In this document: positions 3,651-63,019 of the stretch, in pieces
How positions within the stretch are numbered: the first letter of the stretch is position 1
How the letters are laid out: the number at the start of each line of letters is the position of its first letter
Virus record (IMG/VR): IMGVR_UViG_3300021400_000219
Location: 57,970-121,969 of that record
Reading direction: 5' to 3' (one strand)
DNA: 64,000 nucleotides
DNA from: a virus
Notes under the pieces: generated by a model
Databases searched by the model: none
The model's input: only the letters and a program-made list of their open reading frames with translations
Told to the model about the DNA's origin: nothing
Program-made: the position numbers and the translations under genes

Positions 3651-3700
3651 TTTCTCATTTCTATATATATTATATCATTATTTTTTTATAAAATCAATTA
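3651..3700 (-). promoter_or_regulatory. P-cassette: sigma70-like promoter plus conserved leader
   Basis: Reverse complement contains TATAATATATATAGAAA. Sits upstream of gene 3290-3637. Confidence 0.6.
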
Positions 3701-4558
3701 AGAAATTTCATCTAAAAAAATTAATTCTTGAGCATAGGGCAGTCCTCGTGCAAAAGACATGAAAGCATCAGACCATTCAGTTAACTTATGATTACGACGC
3801 TGTCCTTTTGAACACATGCCTAAAAGATTTTCATAATTACAAGTCCAAGTCCTAGTTTGTAACCAACCTTCTGGTAACCAACGAATTAATTCTTTCCAAT
3901 AACGCTTATCTTTTGTTTCATTATACTTTTGTCTTAAAAATTCTAATTGTTCAATAAAAAATTCTGATAATTGTTTAATTGAATTTTCTCCGGCAGGAGT
4001 AAAAGCATCTTCTTCTTGCTTATAATAAATTAAATCTGGATTAAAATCATCAGTTTCAAAACATTTAAGTGTAATTGGAGTAGATGCTAATTTATGCATT
4101 GTAGAAGTAGAGTTGCTTACAGTTCCTACTTTATAAGTATCCATTTCTTTCCACCAATATAAAGGAGCTGTAATATCTACAGATACAAAAATCTAACGCA
4201 TAAATTTACGATGTTCAGAACCTGCTTTGATTAAACGCTATGCTAAAAATAAATCTTCTGGACCAATAAATGCACTTAAAAATGTATCATCAGGGCCCTC
4301 TTCTAAAGTTCCATTTTTTAAAAGCCAATCTATATAATGTTCATAACAACGTTCTGCATCTCTATTAGTAGGATATTCCTATTCCCAATTTGGATATTTT
4401 AAACTGGTCCAAGCAGATGCTATATCATCTAATTGATTAACATCCCAAATATTTGTAATACCAAACCAACTATCACTTTTATTCCAAGAGTTCATAGGAT
4501 TTCGCATTCCTCGGAACGCATTTTCAAAATTATAAACTTTGATATTCTCAAATTTCAT
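3698..4558 (-). CDS. ThyX-family protein (flavin-dependent thymidylate synthase fold) with a divergent RHR region; contains in-frame TAG codons
   Basis: ORF 3698-4144 and its upstream extension share one frame and are joined by three TAGs. Similar to Thermotoga ThyX at (GSEH..IFVS..APLYWW) and near the C-terminus (LPYAQELI versus HAQWEI). The RHR motif is not recognisable. ATG at 4556-4558 follows a GGAGG RBS. Confidence 0.5.
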
Positions 4559-4564
4559 TATGAG

Positions 4565-4873
4565 CCTCCGAGCTAGAAATAGTCACTGTCCCACAAATAT
4601 CCAAATTATCTTTATCAGTTGACATTCCAGTTAAAAATACTGTATCATAATTATTACTCTTAAAATCATCGATGGGTTTTGTTTCACAAGTAATTGAACT
4701 ACCAGAAGAAGAGGTTGTTATAGTAGTATAATTATAAGGGTTAGTTGTTGTAGGATATGTATATGTCCAGTTATTTACTGACCTGCGGCCATCCCAATAA
4801 GCCTCATTTAATAAATCCTATAATTCTTCTTTTGTAAATTCAATTTTTCCATAATTATTTAGTGTAAAAACTT
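4565..4873 (-). CDS. hypothetical Thr/Ser-rich protein with in-frame TAG
   Basis: Reading frame between ThyX-like and GIY-YIG genes; MIKVFTLNNYGK...; one TAG. Confidence 0.3.
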
Positions 4874-4884
4874 TAATCATAACA

Positions 4885-5922
4885 TCACCTCATAGAATAT
4901 CCATAGTCTTTTGCGTGATAAAATTCTTGCCAATATTGTTCTCTTTCATTTAATTGTAAAGGTTGACATTCTTCAATAACTTCAAATGTAAAATTTTCTG
5001 GACCAATTTCATACATTGCTGGATAAAGTTTATTACGTGTAGCTACTTCTGCGCCTATTCCACGTTTAATATGTTGACGCCATCTCTCAGCAATATTAAC
5101 TGCTTGTCCAACATAACACATCTAATTTTTAATATTAGTAATTTTATAAATACCAGTATGCTATCCCTATCCAATAACTCTACCAACTAAATCAGTATAA
5201 GGTCTTTCATAATAACACTTATAAATTACTTTATTAAGAGGAAGGCTATCTCTAAAATAAGGCAATATTTCTCTTAATCTTTTAATCTCTACCTAATCAC
5301 TTAAAGATAATTTTAAACGATAAAAAGAATCATCGTCTTCTTTTTGCTAAGTTCTTTTGGCTACTTCAATAGCTGCTGAAACTTTACTACGCTCATTTTC
5401 TAATTGATTTTTTAATTCATCAGTTTCTTGACGCAAAGAACCTAACTTAGAATATAATTTACTTGTCTATTCTTTAAAATCTTCTTTAGCATCTTCCAAA
5501 AGAGAAAGATAAGTTTTATTTATATCTTCTCTTCTTTGCTAAAGATTTTTACTTAAACGCTCCATTTCATGTTCATAGCTTTCTTGAGCGCTTTGTCTAG
5601 CAGTTTCATATATAGCTGCGGCCGCAGTTTTCTACTATTCAGTTAAATCTTTTAGATGTTCTTTAGTACGAGCAATTTCCTATTCTTTTAAATCAATATC
5701 TTTTATTAAAGTTTGTAAAATATCTCCACGCTGTTCTATTAACTACTAAATCTAGTTTGCCTAATCTTGCAAAGTATTAATACTTACTCTTAAACTATCT
5801 CGCTATATTACTAAAGCGGCATTAGATTCCTATATTTTTTGTAATTTTGGTTTTAATTTTAAATAGCAAATGCCGGCGCCCACTCCGCCTGCAGCTATAG
5901 TTAATAAAATTATAAAAATCAT
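4885..5922 (-). CDS. fusion protein: N-terminal transmembrane helix, long coiled coil and C-terminal GIY-YIG nuclease domain; about 19 in-frame TAG codons
   Basis: Frame checked codon by codon from the ATG at 5920-5922 down to the TGA at 4885-4887; no TAA or TGA in between. N-terminus MIFIILLTIAAGGVGAGICYL is hydrophobic. C-terminus GIYKITNIKN(TAG)MCYVGQAVNIAERWRQH is a canonical GIY-YIG motif. Confidence 0.6.
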
Positions 5923-5974
5923 AATAAGAAAAAAAGGGACAGCTTTATGCTGCCCCTATAGACTTTATATTAAA

Positions 5975-6238
5975 TTACTCTTCAGCAGTGGGATCAAAAG
6001 CCATACCAGCATCAGTCAGGCTTAGGAACTTAACCTGCTTATGAGTACCATCGGCAAGTTCAACCTCAGCAGGAGTACGAATGCCAAGACCCTTGCGCTG
6101 AATAGCGGATGTAAAAATACCATCAACGGAACGCTTCTCAAGACCGAGAGCATCAGCAACATCAGCAGCAGTTACATTCTGTCCATTAATCTGCTTCAAA
6201 TAATTCAAAACCTTAACACTATTTTCCTTCATAGCCAT
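5975..6238 (-). CDS. small hypothetical protein, possibly DNA-binding
   Basis: Intact 87-aa ORF. Confidence 0.4.
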   Translation of the reverse strand: MAMKENSVKVLNYLKQINGQNVTAADVADALGLEKRSVDGIFTSAIQRKGLGIRTPAEVELADGTHKQVKFLSLTDAGMAFDPTAEE

Positions 6239-6330
6239 AACAATAAATCTCCTTTAAATATATAAAATAAAATTATTTTTTTAAGTATCTCTACTTGATG
6301 TAAAAATTATATCAAAAAAATTTTTTTATG

Positions 6331-6522
6331 TCAAGAATTTTCTTCTAAAATTTCTTGAACTATTTCATCAACAATCATCATATCAAAAGGTGTTAATGAA
6401 CCAGAAATTGACATAATTTCATCTTTTGCACGCAGAACTTCTGCATGATCTTCATTTGCTTCAATAATAGATTCTAGCTTAGCGATTCGTTCCGCAAGCT
6501 TTTTCATTTCTTTCTTTTTCAT
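6331..6522 (-). CDS. small coiled-coil protein
   Basis: 63-aa ORF rich in K and E. Confidence 0.35.
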   Translation of the reverse strand: MKKKEMKKLAERIAKLESIIEANEDHAEVLRAKDEIMSISGSLTPFDMMIVDEIVQEILEENS

Positions 6523-61300: not shown

Positions 61301-61681
61301 TCATCCTTTTGTGCCGCCAAAGATTTTTTCAACTTGGATTTTCCACTCTTCTGGAGAAAGAAAATAAATTTGAGTACGGAGAACTTCATCTGCCTTAGTA
61401 TTATTAGAATGGCCGTAATAATCCCAAGAGACATAATCATCAAGGTCATTGTAATTAATTTCGCCAAGGGCATCGTAAGCTCTGCCTTCAATAATTATTC
61501 CAAAACGGCCAAGCTTTTCATTATAAAGAATGGATACTTCTTTATCTGATTCACTTTTGGCAAAGCGAGCCCAAAGAATAGAAGCCCACCAATAGGAAAG
61601 TTTGTTGTGGAAGTTTGCGCGAACAGCAGGGTCAGCGCAAATAGTATTATTAAAATCAAGAACAAGTTCGTGTGTTGTCAT
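61301..61681 (-). CDS. hypothetical protein
   Basis: 126-aa ORF. Confidence 0.4.
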   Translation of the reverse strand: MTTHELVLDFNNTICADPAVRANFHNKLSYWWASILWARFAKSESDKEVSILYNEKLGRFGIIIEGRAYDALGEINYNDLDDYVSWDYYGHSNNTKADEVLRTQIYFLSPEEWKIQVEKIFGGTKG

Positions 61682-61911
61682 CGAATTCCCCTTTCAGCGC
61701 AGTTAGGACAGAAAATATGCCAATTATTATCTAAGAGGGTGAGAGTAGGATGAAGGATAATATTATGGCATATTTCACATCTATAAATTGAATCGGTGTG
61801 TTGAGAACAATAATCAGATGCGAGAATTTTTCCTCGTTTTACATCTGTCATTATCATACAAGTAAATTTATCGGGTACATAAAGACCGCAAGTTTTACAG
61901 CGAGGTATCAA
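61678..61911 (-). CDS. zinc-ribbon protein
   Basis: CKTCG...CSQH...CEICH...CPNC. Confidence 0.4.
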   Translation of the reverse strand: MIPRCKTCGLYVPDKFTCMIMTDVKRGKILASDYCSQHTDSIYRCEICHNIILHPTLTLLDNNWHIFCPNCAERGIR

Positions 61912-62167
61912 TCAAGATAAGTTCCCTTCTCAATGTAAGTGCGTGCGAGGTCTTCGGGCAGATAGAAAATAGACTCTTCATCATCAACGCACCAGATTTC
62001 AAGGCTCTCAATATCATTGCCGTAATAATTTTCCATCTGCTTAGCGGCATCGGCAAAAGAGGAAGCATAAATGCCGTGATAATTATGCTTGTGATGTAAA
62101 TCTCCATTATGGCTGATTACTTCATCATAATAATTAACACGAACAACATAAGGGCAAGTAGCCATAA
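61908..62167 (-). CDS. hypothetical protein
   Basis: Start placed at the internal ATG, which has an AAAAGGAG RBS and lies downstream of the promoter cassette at 62180-62238. Confidence 0.4.
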
Positions 62168-62179
62168 AGAACATCTCCT

Positions 62180-62238
62180 TTTTATTTTCTATATATATTA
62201 TATAAAAATTTTTTAAGATTTTCAAATATAAGGATTTT
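62180..62238 (-). promoter_or_regulatory. P-cassette promoter/leader
   Basis: TTTTCTATATATATTATA core. Confidence 0.55.
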
Positions 62239-62246
62239 TATTTAGT

Positions 62247-62354
62247 GTCTAAAATTTTAACATAATTATTTAGTGGCTAAAATTTTAACACATTTTTTTA
62301 ACACTTTATCTAAATTTTTAACACTTTATTTGATAAGGCCAAAATTTTAAAAGT
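62247..62354 (+). repeat. iteron array: 4 direct repeats of CTAAAATTTTAACA spaced about 30 bp apart
   Basis: GTCTAAAATTTTAACA, GGCTAAAATTTTAACA, ATCTAAATTTTTAACA and GGCCAAAATTTTAAAA, upstream of the wHTH gene. Confidence 0.65.
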
Positions 62355-62404
62355 AAATTATAACGATTTTTATATTAATTGTCTGTAAAGGAGGTGTAAT
62401 TGTT

Positions 62405-63019
62405 ATGATTGCATTAAGTAAAGTTGAATCAAGATAGATTCCAAAAATTAAAAAAATAATTTCTGATAAAAAATATCATGATATTCTTTATAGTTATTTA
62501 TAGAGTTAGTCAAAATGGGATGGTGAAATTGGACATCCTCGGTACATTAATAAGAAATTAATTAATTTTTCTAAAATGGGTTAGGCTTTAGGAATTTCAA
62601 GACAAACTGCTTCAAGAAGATTTTAGAATTTAATTACTTTAGGTTTAATTAGTGAGGAACCAAATGATAAAGGTGATTATATTTTATAGTTATTACCATC
62701 TGATGTAGCAGCATTAATTCCAGAAAGAACTTTAGAATTATTAGTTAATACTTTAAATGATAATTCTATTTCAACTTATATTTATTTAATGATGCGGTAT
62801 ATTGCAAATGATGAAAGATCTTTTAGATTTTCTGTGGAAGAAATTAAAAATTTCATTGGAATTTCTGTTACTACAAGAAGTAATAATAATGTAGTTAATG
62901 ATATATTAAATGTTTTATAGAAAATTGGTTTAATTAAATTTAGAATTATTAGTGCTGGTAATGAAAATGAAATTAAATTGATACATGAATTAGAATTTTT
63001 GACTAATTATATTGATTAA
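62405..63019 (+). CDS. winged-helix DNA-binding protein (candidate replication initiator, partition protein or repressor) with about seven in-frame TAG codons
   Basis: AAGGAGG RBS. HTH-like ALGISRQTASRRF. Flanked by direct and inverted iterons. Confidence 0.4.

What the first reader, a model, noticed from the sequence alone, without database searches (positions are those of the whole stretch)
3698..63019. Amber (TAG) stop-codon reassignment with a phage-encoded CUA suppressor tRNA
Many genes on both strands carry in-frame TAG codons: ThyX-like, GIY-YIG fusion (about 19 TAGs), RNase H, holin, glycosyltransferase, PIN-PhoH (where a TAG-Ala linker joins the two ORF fragments), both radical SAM enzymes, the tail fibres, the 53809-54596 gene, the NlpC/P60 lysin and the wHTH gene. 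Their reading frames stay open and well conserved across the TAGs. The TAGs sit at sensible positions, for example the fourth residue of CX3CX2C in the radical SAM motif and a position in the GIY-YIG motif.

The genes that lack TAG all end in TAA or TGA: ligase, topoisomerase, helicase, the RNA-repair genes, the MVP-like gene and the TROVE gene.

A tRNA with anticodon CUA (41019-41093) has U33, A37, G73 and an unpaired 1-72 position. These features resemble tRNA-Gln, so TAG is most probably read as Gln, as in other recoded gut phages. The TAG-free genes are the early functions (replication, RNA repair), consistent with suppressor-dependent late expression. The suppressor tRNA has its own copy of the conserved promoter cassette.
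Basis: partly seen in the sequence, partly recalled or inferred. Interest (0 to 1): 0.85.

Follow-up and report, generated by a model that had tools for sequence, protein, structure and literature searches.

The report
Amber-to-glutamine recoded gut phage
This is part of a large gut phage (about 175–185 kb) that reads the stop codon TAG as glutamine and carries its own suppressor tRNA; the finding is correct, but this kind of recoding is already well documented in gut phages.

Summary

- **In-frame TAGs:** About 100 TAGs sit inside roughly 21 credible genes on both strands. Pfam and PDB homology runs straight through them.
- **Bimodal usage:** 28 genes of at least 100 aa have 0 TAG among 248 Gln-type codons. 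15 TAG-rich genes have 95 TAG among 231 (p = 2.5e-36). No gene needs TAG as its terminator.
- **Not an artefact:** Every covered TAG is identical in three independent assemblies.
- **Amino acid:** Codon-level comparison with 84 related loci gives glutamine as the best fit, by 729 nats pooled and 27 nats position-weighted. Standard-code relatives and nine cultured bacteria have Gln at the conserved PhoH positions, including the Walker-B DEAQN glutamine.
- **Suppressor tRNA:** A canonical tRNA(CUA) lies at 41018-41092 on the minus strand (Rfam 57 bits). It has an unpaired 1:72 position and G73, and orthologues in relatives keep the structure through compensatory changes. A near-consensus sigma-70-type promoter lies upstream.

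The "ThyX-like" label is unsupported. The GIY-YIG gene has 16–17 TAGs, not about 19. The early/late split is only partly clean.

The phenomenon (genetic code 15, Borges et al.) is known, so this is a new member of a known kind and of moderate-to-low interest.

The parts
41018..41092 (-). Amber suppressor tRNA, anticodon CUA. Class I cloverleaf with C1/U72 mismatch, G2:C71, G3:C70, G10, U33, A37, G73 and encoded CCA.
   Evidence: ARAGORN; Rfam tRNA 57 bits; orthologues with compensatory changes
41195..41223 (-). Sigma-70-type promoter-like site, TTGAAA-17-TGnTATAAT (11/12 matches), inside cassette copy 41167-41235, about 100 nt upstream of the suppressor tRNA.
41113..41140 (-). Second, proximal promoter-like site, TTGACG-16-TATTAT (10/12 matches), about 20 nt upstream of the tRNA 5' end.
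39935..50339 (-). Array of 23 tRNA genes that contains the suppressor and tRNA-Gln(UUG) at 42715-42789. Promoter cassettes are interspersed.
732..1256 (-). phrog_4680 protein with 4 in-frame TAG.
4885..5922 (-). Transmembrane/coiled-coil protein with a C-terminal GIY-YIG domain, 16 TAG.
13643..14074 (-). RNase H with 1 TAG (codon 61). Homology to E. coli RNase HI continues to the C-terminus.
14394..14723 (-). Holin-like membrane protein with 1 TAG (codon 63). Relatives have Gln there in 54/72.
15720..16703 (-). Family 2 glycosyltransferase with 5 TAG.
16715..18001 (-). PIN-PhoH ATPase with 6 TAG (5 if the true start is the internal Met). TAG-353 is the Walker-B DEAQN glutamine.
18268..18699 (-). 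Unknown 143-aa protein with 3 TAG.
18890..20095 (+). Radical SAM/SPASM protein with 11 TAG, one inside CX3CX2C.
20092..21309 (+). Second radical SAM protein with 6 TAG.
21284..21901 (+). Cys-rich protein with 2 TAG.
34686..35498 (+). Fibre-like repeat protein with 2 TAG.
35539..38151 (+). Tail fibre with 11 TAG (10 in the 859-aa product called in public assemblies).
53805..54596 (-). Unknown 263-aa protein with 8 TAG, embedded among TAG-free genes.
59154..59816 (-). NlpC/P60 peptidoglycan hydrolase with 3 TAG.
62405..63019 (+). wHTH-like protein with 7 TAG.
63267..63743 (+). Coiled-coil protein with 8 TAG, behind a consensus TTGACA-17-TATAAT site.
6568..12955 (-). TAG-free replication block: NAD-dependent DNA ligase and type II topoisomerase subunits A and B.
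24510..33215 (-). TAG-free RNA-repair block: RNA ligase, exonuclease, phosphoesterase, RlaP and the MVP-shoulder-like protein.
38198..39715 (-). TAG-free TROVE/Ro60-like RNA-binding protein next to the tRNA array.

Best explanation
The window is part of a phage genome of about 175-185 kb from gut Bacillota. In this phage TAG is a glutamine codon (genetic code 15).

The phage encodes its own amber suppressor tRNA(CUA). The tRNA's acceptor-stem and discriminator features fit charging with glutamine. Once it accumulates in a standard-code host, it reads the roughly 100 in-frame TAGs in about 21 genes. These include tail fibres, a lysin, a holin-like protein, radical SAM enzymes, a glycosyltransferase, PIN-PhoH, RNase H and a GIY-YIG protein.

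A second set of genes has no TAG at all and ends in TAA or TGA, so it can be translated before any suppressor is present. This set covers the ligase, topoisomerase II, DnaB-like helicase, the RNA-repair genes, the MVP-like protein and the TROVE protein. The suppressor sits behind a near-consensus sigma-70-type promoter of a repeated cassette, so host RNA polymerase can probably make it early.

Shown here: recoding, Gln identity, tRNA integrity, and the presence of the promoter motif.

Inferred, not shown: which enzyme charges the tRNA, competition with host RF1, and the temporal (early to late) role of the TAGs.
For: - ORF fusion and coverage gain with TAG as sense.
- Pfam domains span the TAGs, and PDB alignments run through them.
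- Extreme bimodality of TAG use, p = 2.5e-36.
- TAGs are identical in three independent assemblies at 99.9-100% identity: 14/14, 14/14 and 8/8.
- In a ~90%-identical relative, 11 of 30 covered TAGs are kept and 9 are CAA.
- The Codetta-style likelihood favours Gln by 729 nats pooled and 27 nats position-weighted. Restricted to standard-code-looking relatives it favours Gln by 110 and 12 nats.
- Cultured bacteria have Gln at PhoH 230, 353 and 365 in 9/9, 9/9 and 8/9.
- Relatives' TAGs fall opposite window Gln with 8.1-fold enrichment.
- The tRNA(CUA) is confirmed and has orthologues with compensatory changes.
- The promoter site TTGAAA-17-TGnTATAAT lies upstream of the tRNA.
- 45 of the 62 related loci of at least 15 kb (window included) also look TAG-recoded.
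- Plus-strand modules are enriched for TAG genes, 10/12 against 15/63, p = 1.6e-4.
- The pattern matches published code-15 phages.
Against: - There is no direct evidence for aminoacylation or for Gln in the proteins.
- tRNA sequence similarity alone does not separate Gln (0.67) from Leu (0.68) or Trp (0.64).
- The early/late split is imperfect. RNase H, PIN-PhoH and GIY-YIG carry TAG, while a lysis-type C39 peptidase is TAG-free.
- The cassette is not significantly associated with TAG-free first genes (9/11 vs 41/64, p = 0.32).
- Some TAG-rich genes also have consensus sigma-70-type promoters.
- No RF2 or aminoacyl-tRNA synthetase was found among the proteins I scanned against Pfam (all TAG-free proteins of 230 aa or more, and ten TAG-containing ones).
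- The host is only inferred from MAG binning.
- Many TAG positions align to K, E, R, N or L in relatives, so they are not ancestral Gln sites.
Confidence: 0.9

Rival explanations
1. The code change is real (TAG = Gln), but it has no temporal regulatory role. TAG-free genes lack TAG for other reasons, such as recent acquisition, a different codon-usage class or chance. The suppressor simply works throughout infection.
For: - The functional split is imperfect.
- The cassette is not significantly linked to TAG-free genes.
- Some TAG-rich genes have strong sigma-70-like promoters.
- Several TAG-free genes have a distinct G-ending codon usage and higher GC, which would fit a separate origin.
Against: - Zero TAG among 248 Gln-type codons is far beyond chance (10^-24.5 at the pooled rate).
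- A/T-rich TAG-free genes (ligase, topoisomerase) share the codon usage of TAG-rich genes yet still have no TAG.
- The same partition is reported across many recoded phage clades.
Confidence: 0.25
2. TAG is decoded as another amino acid: Lys or pyrrolysine (ARAGORN's label), Trp, Tyr, Glu or Leu.
For: - ARAGORN labels any CUA tRNA 'Pyl'.
- Lys is the second most frequent residue opposite TAG.
- The anticodon arm resembles the phage's tRNA-Trp.
Against: - Gln beats Lys by 729 nats pooled and 27 nats position-weighted.
- Invariant sites are Gln, never Lys or Trp.
- The tRNA is a canonical cloverleaf with two bases between the acceptor and D stems, a 7-nt D loop and a 5-nt variable loop. From my own knowledge, this is unlike pylT.
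- No PylS-like protein was found among the proteins I scanned.
Confidence: 0.03
3. The in-frame TAGs are sequencing or assembly errors, or mark decaying pseudogenes.
For: None, beyond the fragmented appearance under table 11.
Against: - The TAGs are identical in ENA, NCBI and JGI assemblies.
- TAGs occur in 45 of the 62 related loci of at least 15 kb (window included).
- Only TAG, never TAA or TGA, interrupts the frames.
- Conserved domains continue after the TAGs.
Confidence: 0.005
4. TAG remains a stop codon. The fragments are separate functional products, or are joined only by rare readthrough using host near-cognate tRNAs. The phage tRNA(CUA) is incidental.
For: Host RF1 would still compete at TAG. 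No RF1 inhibitor or RF2 gene was seen in the window.
Against: - Genes with 8-16 TAGs cannot yield product by rare readthrough.
- Catalytic residues lie downstream of TAGs, for example the RNase H Asp residues and the PhoH Walker B motif.
- A structurally conserved suppressor tRNA is maintained in relatives.
Confidence: 0.01

Closest known systems
TAG-recoded (genetic code 15) gut phages described by Borges et al. (bioRxiv 10.1101/2021.08.26.457843): Lak, crAss-like, Jade, Sapphire, Agate, Garnet, Amethyst and Topaz clades
   Same: - TAG aligns with Gln.
- The phage encodes a tRNA(CUA).
- Hosts are predicted to be standard-code Firmicutes or Bacteroidetes.
- Structural and lysis genes are recoded, replication genes variably so.
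- In the large clades the recoded modules are spread across the genome.
- Standard-code and recoded members are mixed within a clade (compared).
   Different: Clade membership could not be tested, because there is no large terminase in the window. No RF2 or aminoacyl-tRNA synthetase was seen here. This lineage also shows a repeated sigma-70-type cassette upstream of the suppressor, and a large tRNA array (23 tRNA genes called).
crAss-like phages with experimentally validated code 15 (Peters et al., Nat Commun 2022, PMC9523058)
   Same: The same reassignment (TAG to Gln), proven there by metaproteomics (abstract seen).
   Different: Unrelated phage lineage with a Bacteroidota host. There is no proteomic evidence for the present phage.
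Classical glutamine-inserting amber suppressor tRNAs of E. coli (supE; the su+7 tRNA-Trp-derived suppressor, which is charged with Gln). This entry rests on my own knowledge, not on a test here.
   Same: CUA anticodon with U35, G73, a weak or unpaired 1:72, G2:C71, G3:C70 and G10. These are the GlnRS identity elements as I recall them, and all are read directly from the sequence.
   Different: Phage-encoded and part of a large tRNA array. The host may lack GlnRS and use the GluRS/GatCAB route instead. Charging was not tested.
phAss-1-like gut phages that use an alternative code (PMC10607447)
   Same: A gut virome phage with TAG inside many ORFs (abstract seen).
   Different: Different genome size (136 kb). 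Relatedness was not tested.

Membership tests
Genetic code 15 (TAG = Gln) recoded phage | In-frame TAGs inside conserved protein-coding genes, with homology continuing across them | tested here: met
Genetic code 15 (TAG = Gln) recoded phage | TAG positions align with glutamine in homologues, including standard-code organisms | tested here: met
Genetic code 15 (TAG = Gln) recoded phage | TAG is not needed as a terminator; genes end in TAA or TGA | tested here: met
   54 TAA and 23 TGA stops. The 27 complete TAG-free genes of at least 100 aa (a 28th runs off the window end) end in TAA or TGA under either code.
Genetic code 15 (TAG = Gln) recoded phage | Phage-encoded suppressor tRNA with anticodon CUA (common, but not universal in the family) | tested here: met
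Genetic code 15 (TAG = Gln) recoded phage | A standard-code-compatible gene subset alongside recoded structural and lysis genes | tested here: met
   Bimodality. Tail fibres, NlpC/P60 and the holin-like gene are recoded. The exception is the TAG-free C39 peptidase.
Genetic code 15 (TAG = Gln) recoded phage | Gln physically incorporated at TAG (proteomics) | not testable with these tools
   Needs LC-MS/MS of samples that contain this phage.
Genetic code 15 (TAG = Gln) recoded phage | The host uses the standard code | tested here: inconclusive
   Relatives are binned with Bacillota MAGs, and one lies on a 420-kb contig of a cultured Coprococcus ammoniilyticus. The host of this particular phage is not identified.
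Named recoded clades (Jade / Sapphire / Agate) | Placement in the large-terminase phylogeny | not testable with these tools
   There is no terminase in the window or in the fetched loci.
Gln-accepting amber suppressor tRNA | U35, G73, weak or unpaired 1:72, G2:C71, G3:C70, G10 (the identity set is recalled from the literature) | tested here: met
   Read directly from the sequence. The unpaired 1:72 and G73 are conserved in orthologues L087 and L088.
Gln-accepting amber suppressor tRNA | Aminoacylation with Gln, by GlnRS or by GluRS plus GatCAB | not testable with these tools
   Biochemical assay needed.
Pyrrolysine decoding (ARAGORN label 'tRNA-Pyl') | pylT-type non-canonical tRNA architecture, PylS/PylBCD genes, and TAG at Pyl/Lys-type sites | tested here: not met
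   The cloverleaf is canonical. No such proteins were found among those I scanned. Conserved TAG sites are Gln.

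The most novel reading that the evidence does not exclude
Beyond plain code-15 recoding, this lineage may run a three-tier translational programme.

1. Immediate-early genes: TAG-free, in cassette-led operons, and using G-ending codons (AAG, CAG) that only host tRNAs read. Examples are the MVP-like, TROVE and RNA-ligase genes and 54797-57114.
2. A/T3-rich TAG-free genes (replication) that depend on the phage's U34 tRNA array.
3. TAG-containing genes that depend on the suppressor.

In tier 3, TAGs appear to have been actively added at non-Gln, variable positions. Gln-type codons make up 4.9% of codons in TAG-rich genes and 2.7% in TAG-free genes, which would fit selection for TAG as a translational lock rather than synonymous drift.
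Probability: 0.3. Interest if true: 0.45.

Novelty: new member of a known kind. Interest (0 to 1): 0.3.

Why it matters
For annotation, the window and its relatives must be translated with table 15. Under table 11 about 21 genes fragment, and roughly 14% of the window (greedy ORF coverage 0.74 vs 0.88) loses its ORF assignment. IMG/VR alone holds 335 related contigs.

[quoted passage not shown] It has a clearly identifiable suppressor tRNA, a candidate promoter for that tRNA, and a sharp TAG-free versus TAG-rich gene partition. It could serve as a test case for the "recoding as a timer or lock" hypothesis if a host is found. A related element in a cultured Coprococcus isolate is a lead. The finding does not change what is known about phage recoding.

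Tried and rejected
- **Megablast vs INPHARED:** 16 kb of the window gave no match. tblastn with the topoisomerase found only hits below 60% identity, 39-40% among the best-ranked records, so no annotated genome of this family was available.
- **The search for related loci with the single PIN-PhoH protein:** nothing confirmed. The alignment-based query worked.
- **tRNA identity from similarity to the phage's own tRNAs:** not decisive. Gln 0.67, Leu 0.68, Trp 0.64, against a background of 0.57 +/- 0.05.
- **Database proteins showing Q at TAG columns:** not treated as independent evidence. The relatives' genes do not translate under table 11 and were evidently called with TAG = Q. I replaced this line with codon-level DNA comparison.
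- **'ThyX-like' label:** rejected as unsupported.
- **Apparent 1.7-kb ORF-poor gap at 22834-24509:** an artefact of my greedy ORF choice. Five TAG-free minus-strand genes fill it.
- **Cassette vs TAG-free association:** not significant (p = 0.32). Cassette vs GC3: p = 0.11.
- **Pyrrolysine reading:** rejected (see the membership test).

Full report
**Observation**

The window is 32.9% G+C. It carries 23 tRNA genes, all on the minus strand between 39935 and 50339. One of them is a tRNA with anticodon CUA at 41018-41092.

If only TAA and TGA count as stops, greedy ORF coverage rises from 0.74 to 0.88. The number of ORFs of at least 300 aa rises from 13 to 19. The resulting gene map is sharply bimodal:
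- Some genes carry many in-frame TAGs: 4885-5922 has 16 in 345 codons, 18890-20095 has 11, 35539-38151 has 11, 53805-54596 has 8, 62405-63019 has 7 and 63267-63743 has 8.
- Long genes such as the ligase, both topoisomerase II subunits, the MVP-like protein, the TROVE protein and the RNA ligase carry none.

Among genes of at least 100 aa, 28 TAG-free genes have 0 TAG against 248 CAA+CAG. Fifteen TAG-rich genes have 95 TAG against 136 CAA+CAG (Fisher p = 2.5e-36). At the pooled rate, the chance of zero TAG in the first set is about 10^-24.5. Every credible gene ends in TAA (54) or TGA (23).

**The TAG-containing ORFs are real genes that are read through**

Pfam domains span the TAGs:
- RNase H covers residues 1-143, with a TAG at 61.
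- GT2 covers 8-164, with TAGs at 113 and 132.
- PhoH covers 234-421, with TAGs at 353, 365 and 414.
- Radical_SAM covers 48-186, with seven TAGs inside.
- The second radical SAM domain covers 14-132, with a TAG at 88.

The RNase H alignment to solved RNase HI structures (Chlorobium tepidum 3H08 and E. coli-type chains) continues past the TAG to the C-terminal conserved region.

The TAGs are not errors. Three independent assemblies (ENA, NCBI and JGI) are 99.9-100% identical to the window and keep 14/14, 14/14 and 8/8 of the covered TAGs. Of the 62 related loci of at least 15 kb (the window counted among them), 45 show the same gain in ORF coverage when TAG is read as sense. None clearly favours TGA.

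**Which amino acid**

The PIN-PhoH protein has thousands of homologues. In an alignment of the best 120, TAG-230, 353 and 365 fall in columns that are Gln in 116-120 sequences.

I did not treat that as independent evidence. The closest relatives' genes do not translate under table 11, so their "Q" was probably written by a table-15 gene caller.

Instead I fetched DNA for 84 related loci and compared codons directly:
- Opposite 49 window TAG positions, relatives have CAA 279, CAG 103, AAA 114, GAA 64 and TAG 60.
- I built an empirical substitution matrix from the window's sense codons in the same alignments. With it, Gln is the best explanation by 729 nats pooled and 27 nats when each position is weighted equally.
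- At conserved sites relatives have genuine CAA/CAG codons. PhoH 230, 353 and 365 are Gln in 81, 76 and 74 of 84. The holin-like codon 63 is Gln in 54 of 72.
- In the reverse direction, relatives' TAGs lie opposite window Gln with 8.1-fold enrichment.

Restricting the test to loci whose region looks standard-code gives Q in 15/15, 15/15, 16/16 and 10/10 at the four conserved sites. Gln is again best, by 110 and 12 nats.

Nine cultured standard-code bacteria have Gln at these three PhoH sites in 9/9, 9/9 and 8/9. They are Shimazuella, Thermoactinomyces, Croceifilum, Baia, Paenibacillus and a Coprococcus isolate.

The solved PhoH structure 3B85 places the glutamine of the Walker-B motif DEAQN on TAG-353.

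In a ~90%-identical relative, 11 of 30 covered TAGs are retained and 9 are CAA. The TAG-to-CAA exchange needs two nucleotide changes, so this is best explained by synonymy.

**The suppressor tRNA**

The tRNA folds as a canonical class I cloverleaf. It has a 7-bp acceptor stem with a C1/U72 mismatch, two bases before the D stem, a 7-nt D loop, a 5-bp anticodon stem, the loop CUCUAAA (U33, anticodon CUA, A37), a 5-nt variable loop, a TTCGAGT T-loop, G73 and an encoded CCA. Rfam's tRNA model scores it 57 bits against a gathering score of 29.

Orthologues in related IMG/VR contigs (L087, L088, L090) have identical D and anticodon arms. They show compensatory changes at 7:66 (G-C to C-G), 6:67 (U-G to G-C), 3:70 (G-C to A-U) and 49:65 (G-C to C-G). 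Position 1:72 is always unpaired and position 73 is always G.

From my own knowledge of E. coli GlnRS identity, the set U35, G73, weak 1:72, G2:C71, G3:C70 and G10 fits a Gln acceptor. This is a resemblance, not a test. Sequence similarity to the phage's own tRNAs does not discriminate.

ARAGORN's "Pyl" label follows from the anticodon alone and is rejected. The architecture is canonical, no Pyl genes were found among the proteins I scanned, and conserved TAG sites are Gln.

**Promoter cassette**

A conserved AT-rich element occurs 16-17 times in the window, against 0.08 expected. Read on the minus strand it is TTGAAA-N17-(TGn)TATAAT-ATATATAGAAAGTTAAGGA. All strong copies are oriented for minus-strand genes.

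One copy (41167-41235) lies upstream of the suppressor. The scanner calls TTGAAA-17-TATAAT there with an extended -10 TG, 11 of 12 matches, at 41223-41195. A second site, TTGACG-16-TATTAT, lies at 41140-41113.

The core motif is present in 63 of 95 loci (the window and all loci fetched up to that point), so it is shared across the family. In L087 and L090, however, it is not upstream of the CUA tRNAs.

**Early/late interpretation**

Support:
- Tail fibres, the NlpC/P60 hydrolase and the holin-like protein carry TAG. Replication and RNA-repair genes do not.
- Plus-strand modules are TAG-containing in 10 of 12 genes, against 15 of 63 on the minus strand (p = 1.6e-4).
- This matches the published pattern for large recoded phages, in which structural and lysis modules are recoded and scattered, while replication genes are variably recoded.

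Limits:
- RNase H, PIN-PhoH, GT2, the radical SAM genes and the GIY-YIG gene carry TAG.
- A lysis-type C39 peptidase/amidase (14704-15747) has none.
- TAG-rich genes such as 53805-54596 and 59154-59816 are embedded among TAG-free genes on the same strand.
- The cassette is not significantly associated with TAG-free first genes (9/11 vs 41/64, p = 0.32).
- At least one TAG-rich gene (63267-63743) has a consensus TTGACA-17-TATAAT site.

Timing therefore remains an inference.

**Mechanism**

The most likely sequence of events is as follows.

1. On infection of a standard-code Bacillota host, TAG-free genes are translated by the unmodified host apparatus. The host is inferred from MAG binning and one related element in a cultured Coprococcus.
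2. The tRNA array, including tRNA(CUA), is transcribed from sigma-70-type promoters.
3. The suppressor is charged with Gln and competes with RF1.
4. Genes carrying TAG then yield full-length products.

No RF2, RF1-related protein or aminoacyl-tRNA synthetase was found among the proteins I scanned against Pfam: all TAG-free proteins of 230 aa or more, and ten TAG-containing ones. The rest of the genome (about 110-120 kb) was not available.

**Comparison and novelty**

This is the phenomenon described for gut phages by Borges et al.. It was validated by proteomics in crAss-like phages by Peters et al..

Public protein collections already hold this lineage's proteins translated with TAG = Q. The finding is therefore correct, but it is a new member of a known kind.

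Clade membership (Jade, Sapphire or Agate) could not be tested without a terminase gene.

**Side observations that might deserve their own look**

- **Codon usage.** A subset of TAG-free genes has distinct G-ending codon usage. Many of them are in cassette-led operons. The phage encodes only U34 tRNAs for Lys and Gln.
- **Extra Gln-type codons.** TAG-rich genes have 4.9% Gln-type codons against 2.7% in TAG-free genes. Many TAGs sit at positions that are K, E, R, N or L in relatives. This suggests TAGs were added rather than swapped for existing Gln codons.
- **Possible Y RNA-like elements.** Two sub-threshold matches to YrlA lie in the tRNA array. One is a permuted tRNA-like module. Both lie near a TROVE/Ro60-like gene.

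Noticed in passing
window 47519-47590 (-) and 43178-43278 (-); TROVE gene 38198-39715 (-): There are two sub-threshold Rfam matches to YrlA (Y RNA-like), at about 31 bits and E of about 0.002 against a gathering score of 69. At 47519-47590 a tRNA 3' half (T arm, acceptor, CCA) is followed directly by a tRNA 5' half with a complementary acceptor, and ARAGORN does not call it. The phage encodes a TROVE/Ro60-like protein, an RNA ligase, RlaP and an MVP-shoulder-like protein, so this could be a phage Ro60/Y-RNA module.
   Followed up: partly
window genes 1303-3273, 24510-25919, 30765-33215, 38198-39715, 44525-45226, 54797-57114, 60080-60814: A subset of TAG-free genes prefers G-ending codons (AAG and CAG fractions 0.4-1.0, GC3 up to 0.60; 54797-55201 has 53% GC) in a 33% GC genome. 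The phage's own tRNAs for Lys and Gln are U34 only. Many of these genes sit in cassette-led operons. The gene-level test is not significant (GC3 p = 0.11), although pooled codon counts differ about two-fold.
   Followed up: partly
window, 17 copies, e.g. 3657-3674, 27547-27564, 33237-33254, 41183-41200, 55245-55262: The repeated sigma-70-type cassette TTGAAA-N17-(TGn)TATAAT-ATATATAGAAAGTTAAGGA is always oriented for the minus strand. It is also found in 63 of 95 loci (the window and all loci fetched up to that point), including distant ones, so it is probably the family's main host-polymerase promoter with a conserved leader.
   Followed up: partly
window, TAG-rich vs TAG-free genes: Counting TAG as Gln, TAG-rich genes have 4.9% Gln-type codons against 2.7% in TAG-free genes. 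Many TAG sites align to K, E, R, N or L in relatives. TAGs therefore appear to have been gained at variable non-Gln positions, not just exchanged with CAA or CAG.
   Followed up: partly
window 18890-21901 (+): Two radical SAM (one SPASM) enzymes are followed by a 205-aa protein with a Cys-rich tail (CSCSCACSCSCDCGPCSCPCSHPCNC). This looks like a peptide- or protein-maturation cassette, and all three genes contain TAG.
   Followed up: no
L001 14862-18852: In the 94%-PhoH-identical relative, the topoisomerase/gyrase B-like gene is split into three pieces by two GIY-YIG ORFs. The window's copy (11048-12955) is intact. This looks like homing-endonuclease insertion polymorphism.
   Followed up: no
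L087 4043-4192; L090 1154-1303; L085 672-1059; L089 11745-12132: Some related phage contigs carry two different tRNA(CUA) genes side by side. One is orthologous to the window's suppressor. The other has a different body: U1/U72 mismatch with G73, or G1-C72 with A73.
   Followed up: no
window 45971-46046 and 48560-48638 (-): ARAGORN's tRNA-Met(CAU) and tRNA-Ala(UGC) do not reach Rfam's tRNA gathering score. The 'Met' region gives only a weak tRNA-Sec match. These may be atypical tRNAs or false calls.
   Followed up: no
window 45644-45700 (-): Sub-threshold match to the type-P1 twister ribozyme (31.4 bits, E = 0.0014, gathering score 67).
   Followed up: no
window 49757-49831 and 50073-50147: A 75-nt direct repeat at 84% identity lies at the upstream end of the tRNA array. 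Its nature is unknown.
   Followed up: no
window 51499-52734 and 55306-57114 (-): Two TAG-free proteins of unknown function share an LS[IV]HPLD[FY]L...W[R]SC motif and C-terminal CxxC clusters, so they are probably paralogues. Neither has a Pfam match.
   Followed up: no
L103 (NZ_JAOQJS010000004.1:378704-385921): A PIN-PhoH relative at 48-50% identity, with no in-frame stops, lies on a 420-kb contig of the cultured Coprococcus ammoniilyticus H1_22. This may be a prophage or episome of the same phage family, and so a lead to a culturable host.
   Followed up: partly
It belongs to phrog_6721, whose function is unknown.
   Followed up: yes
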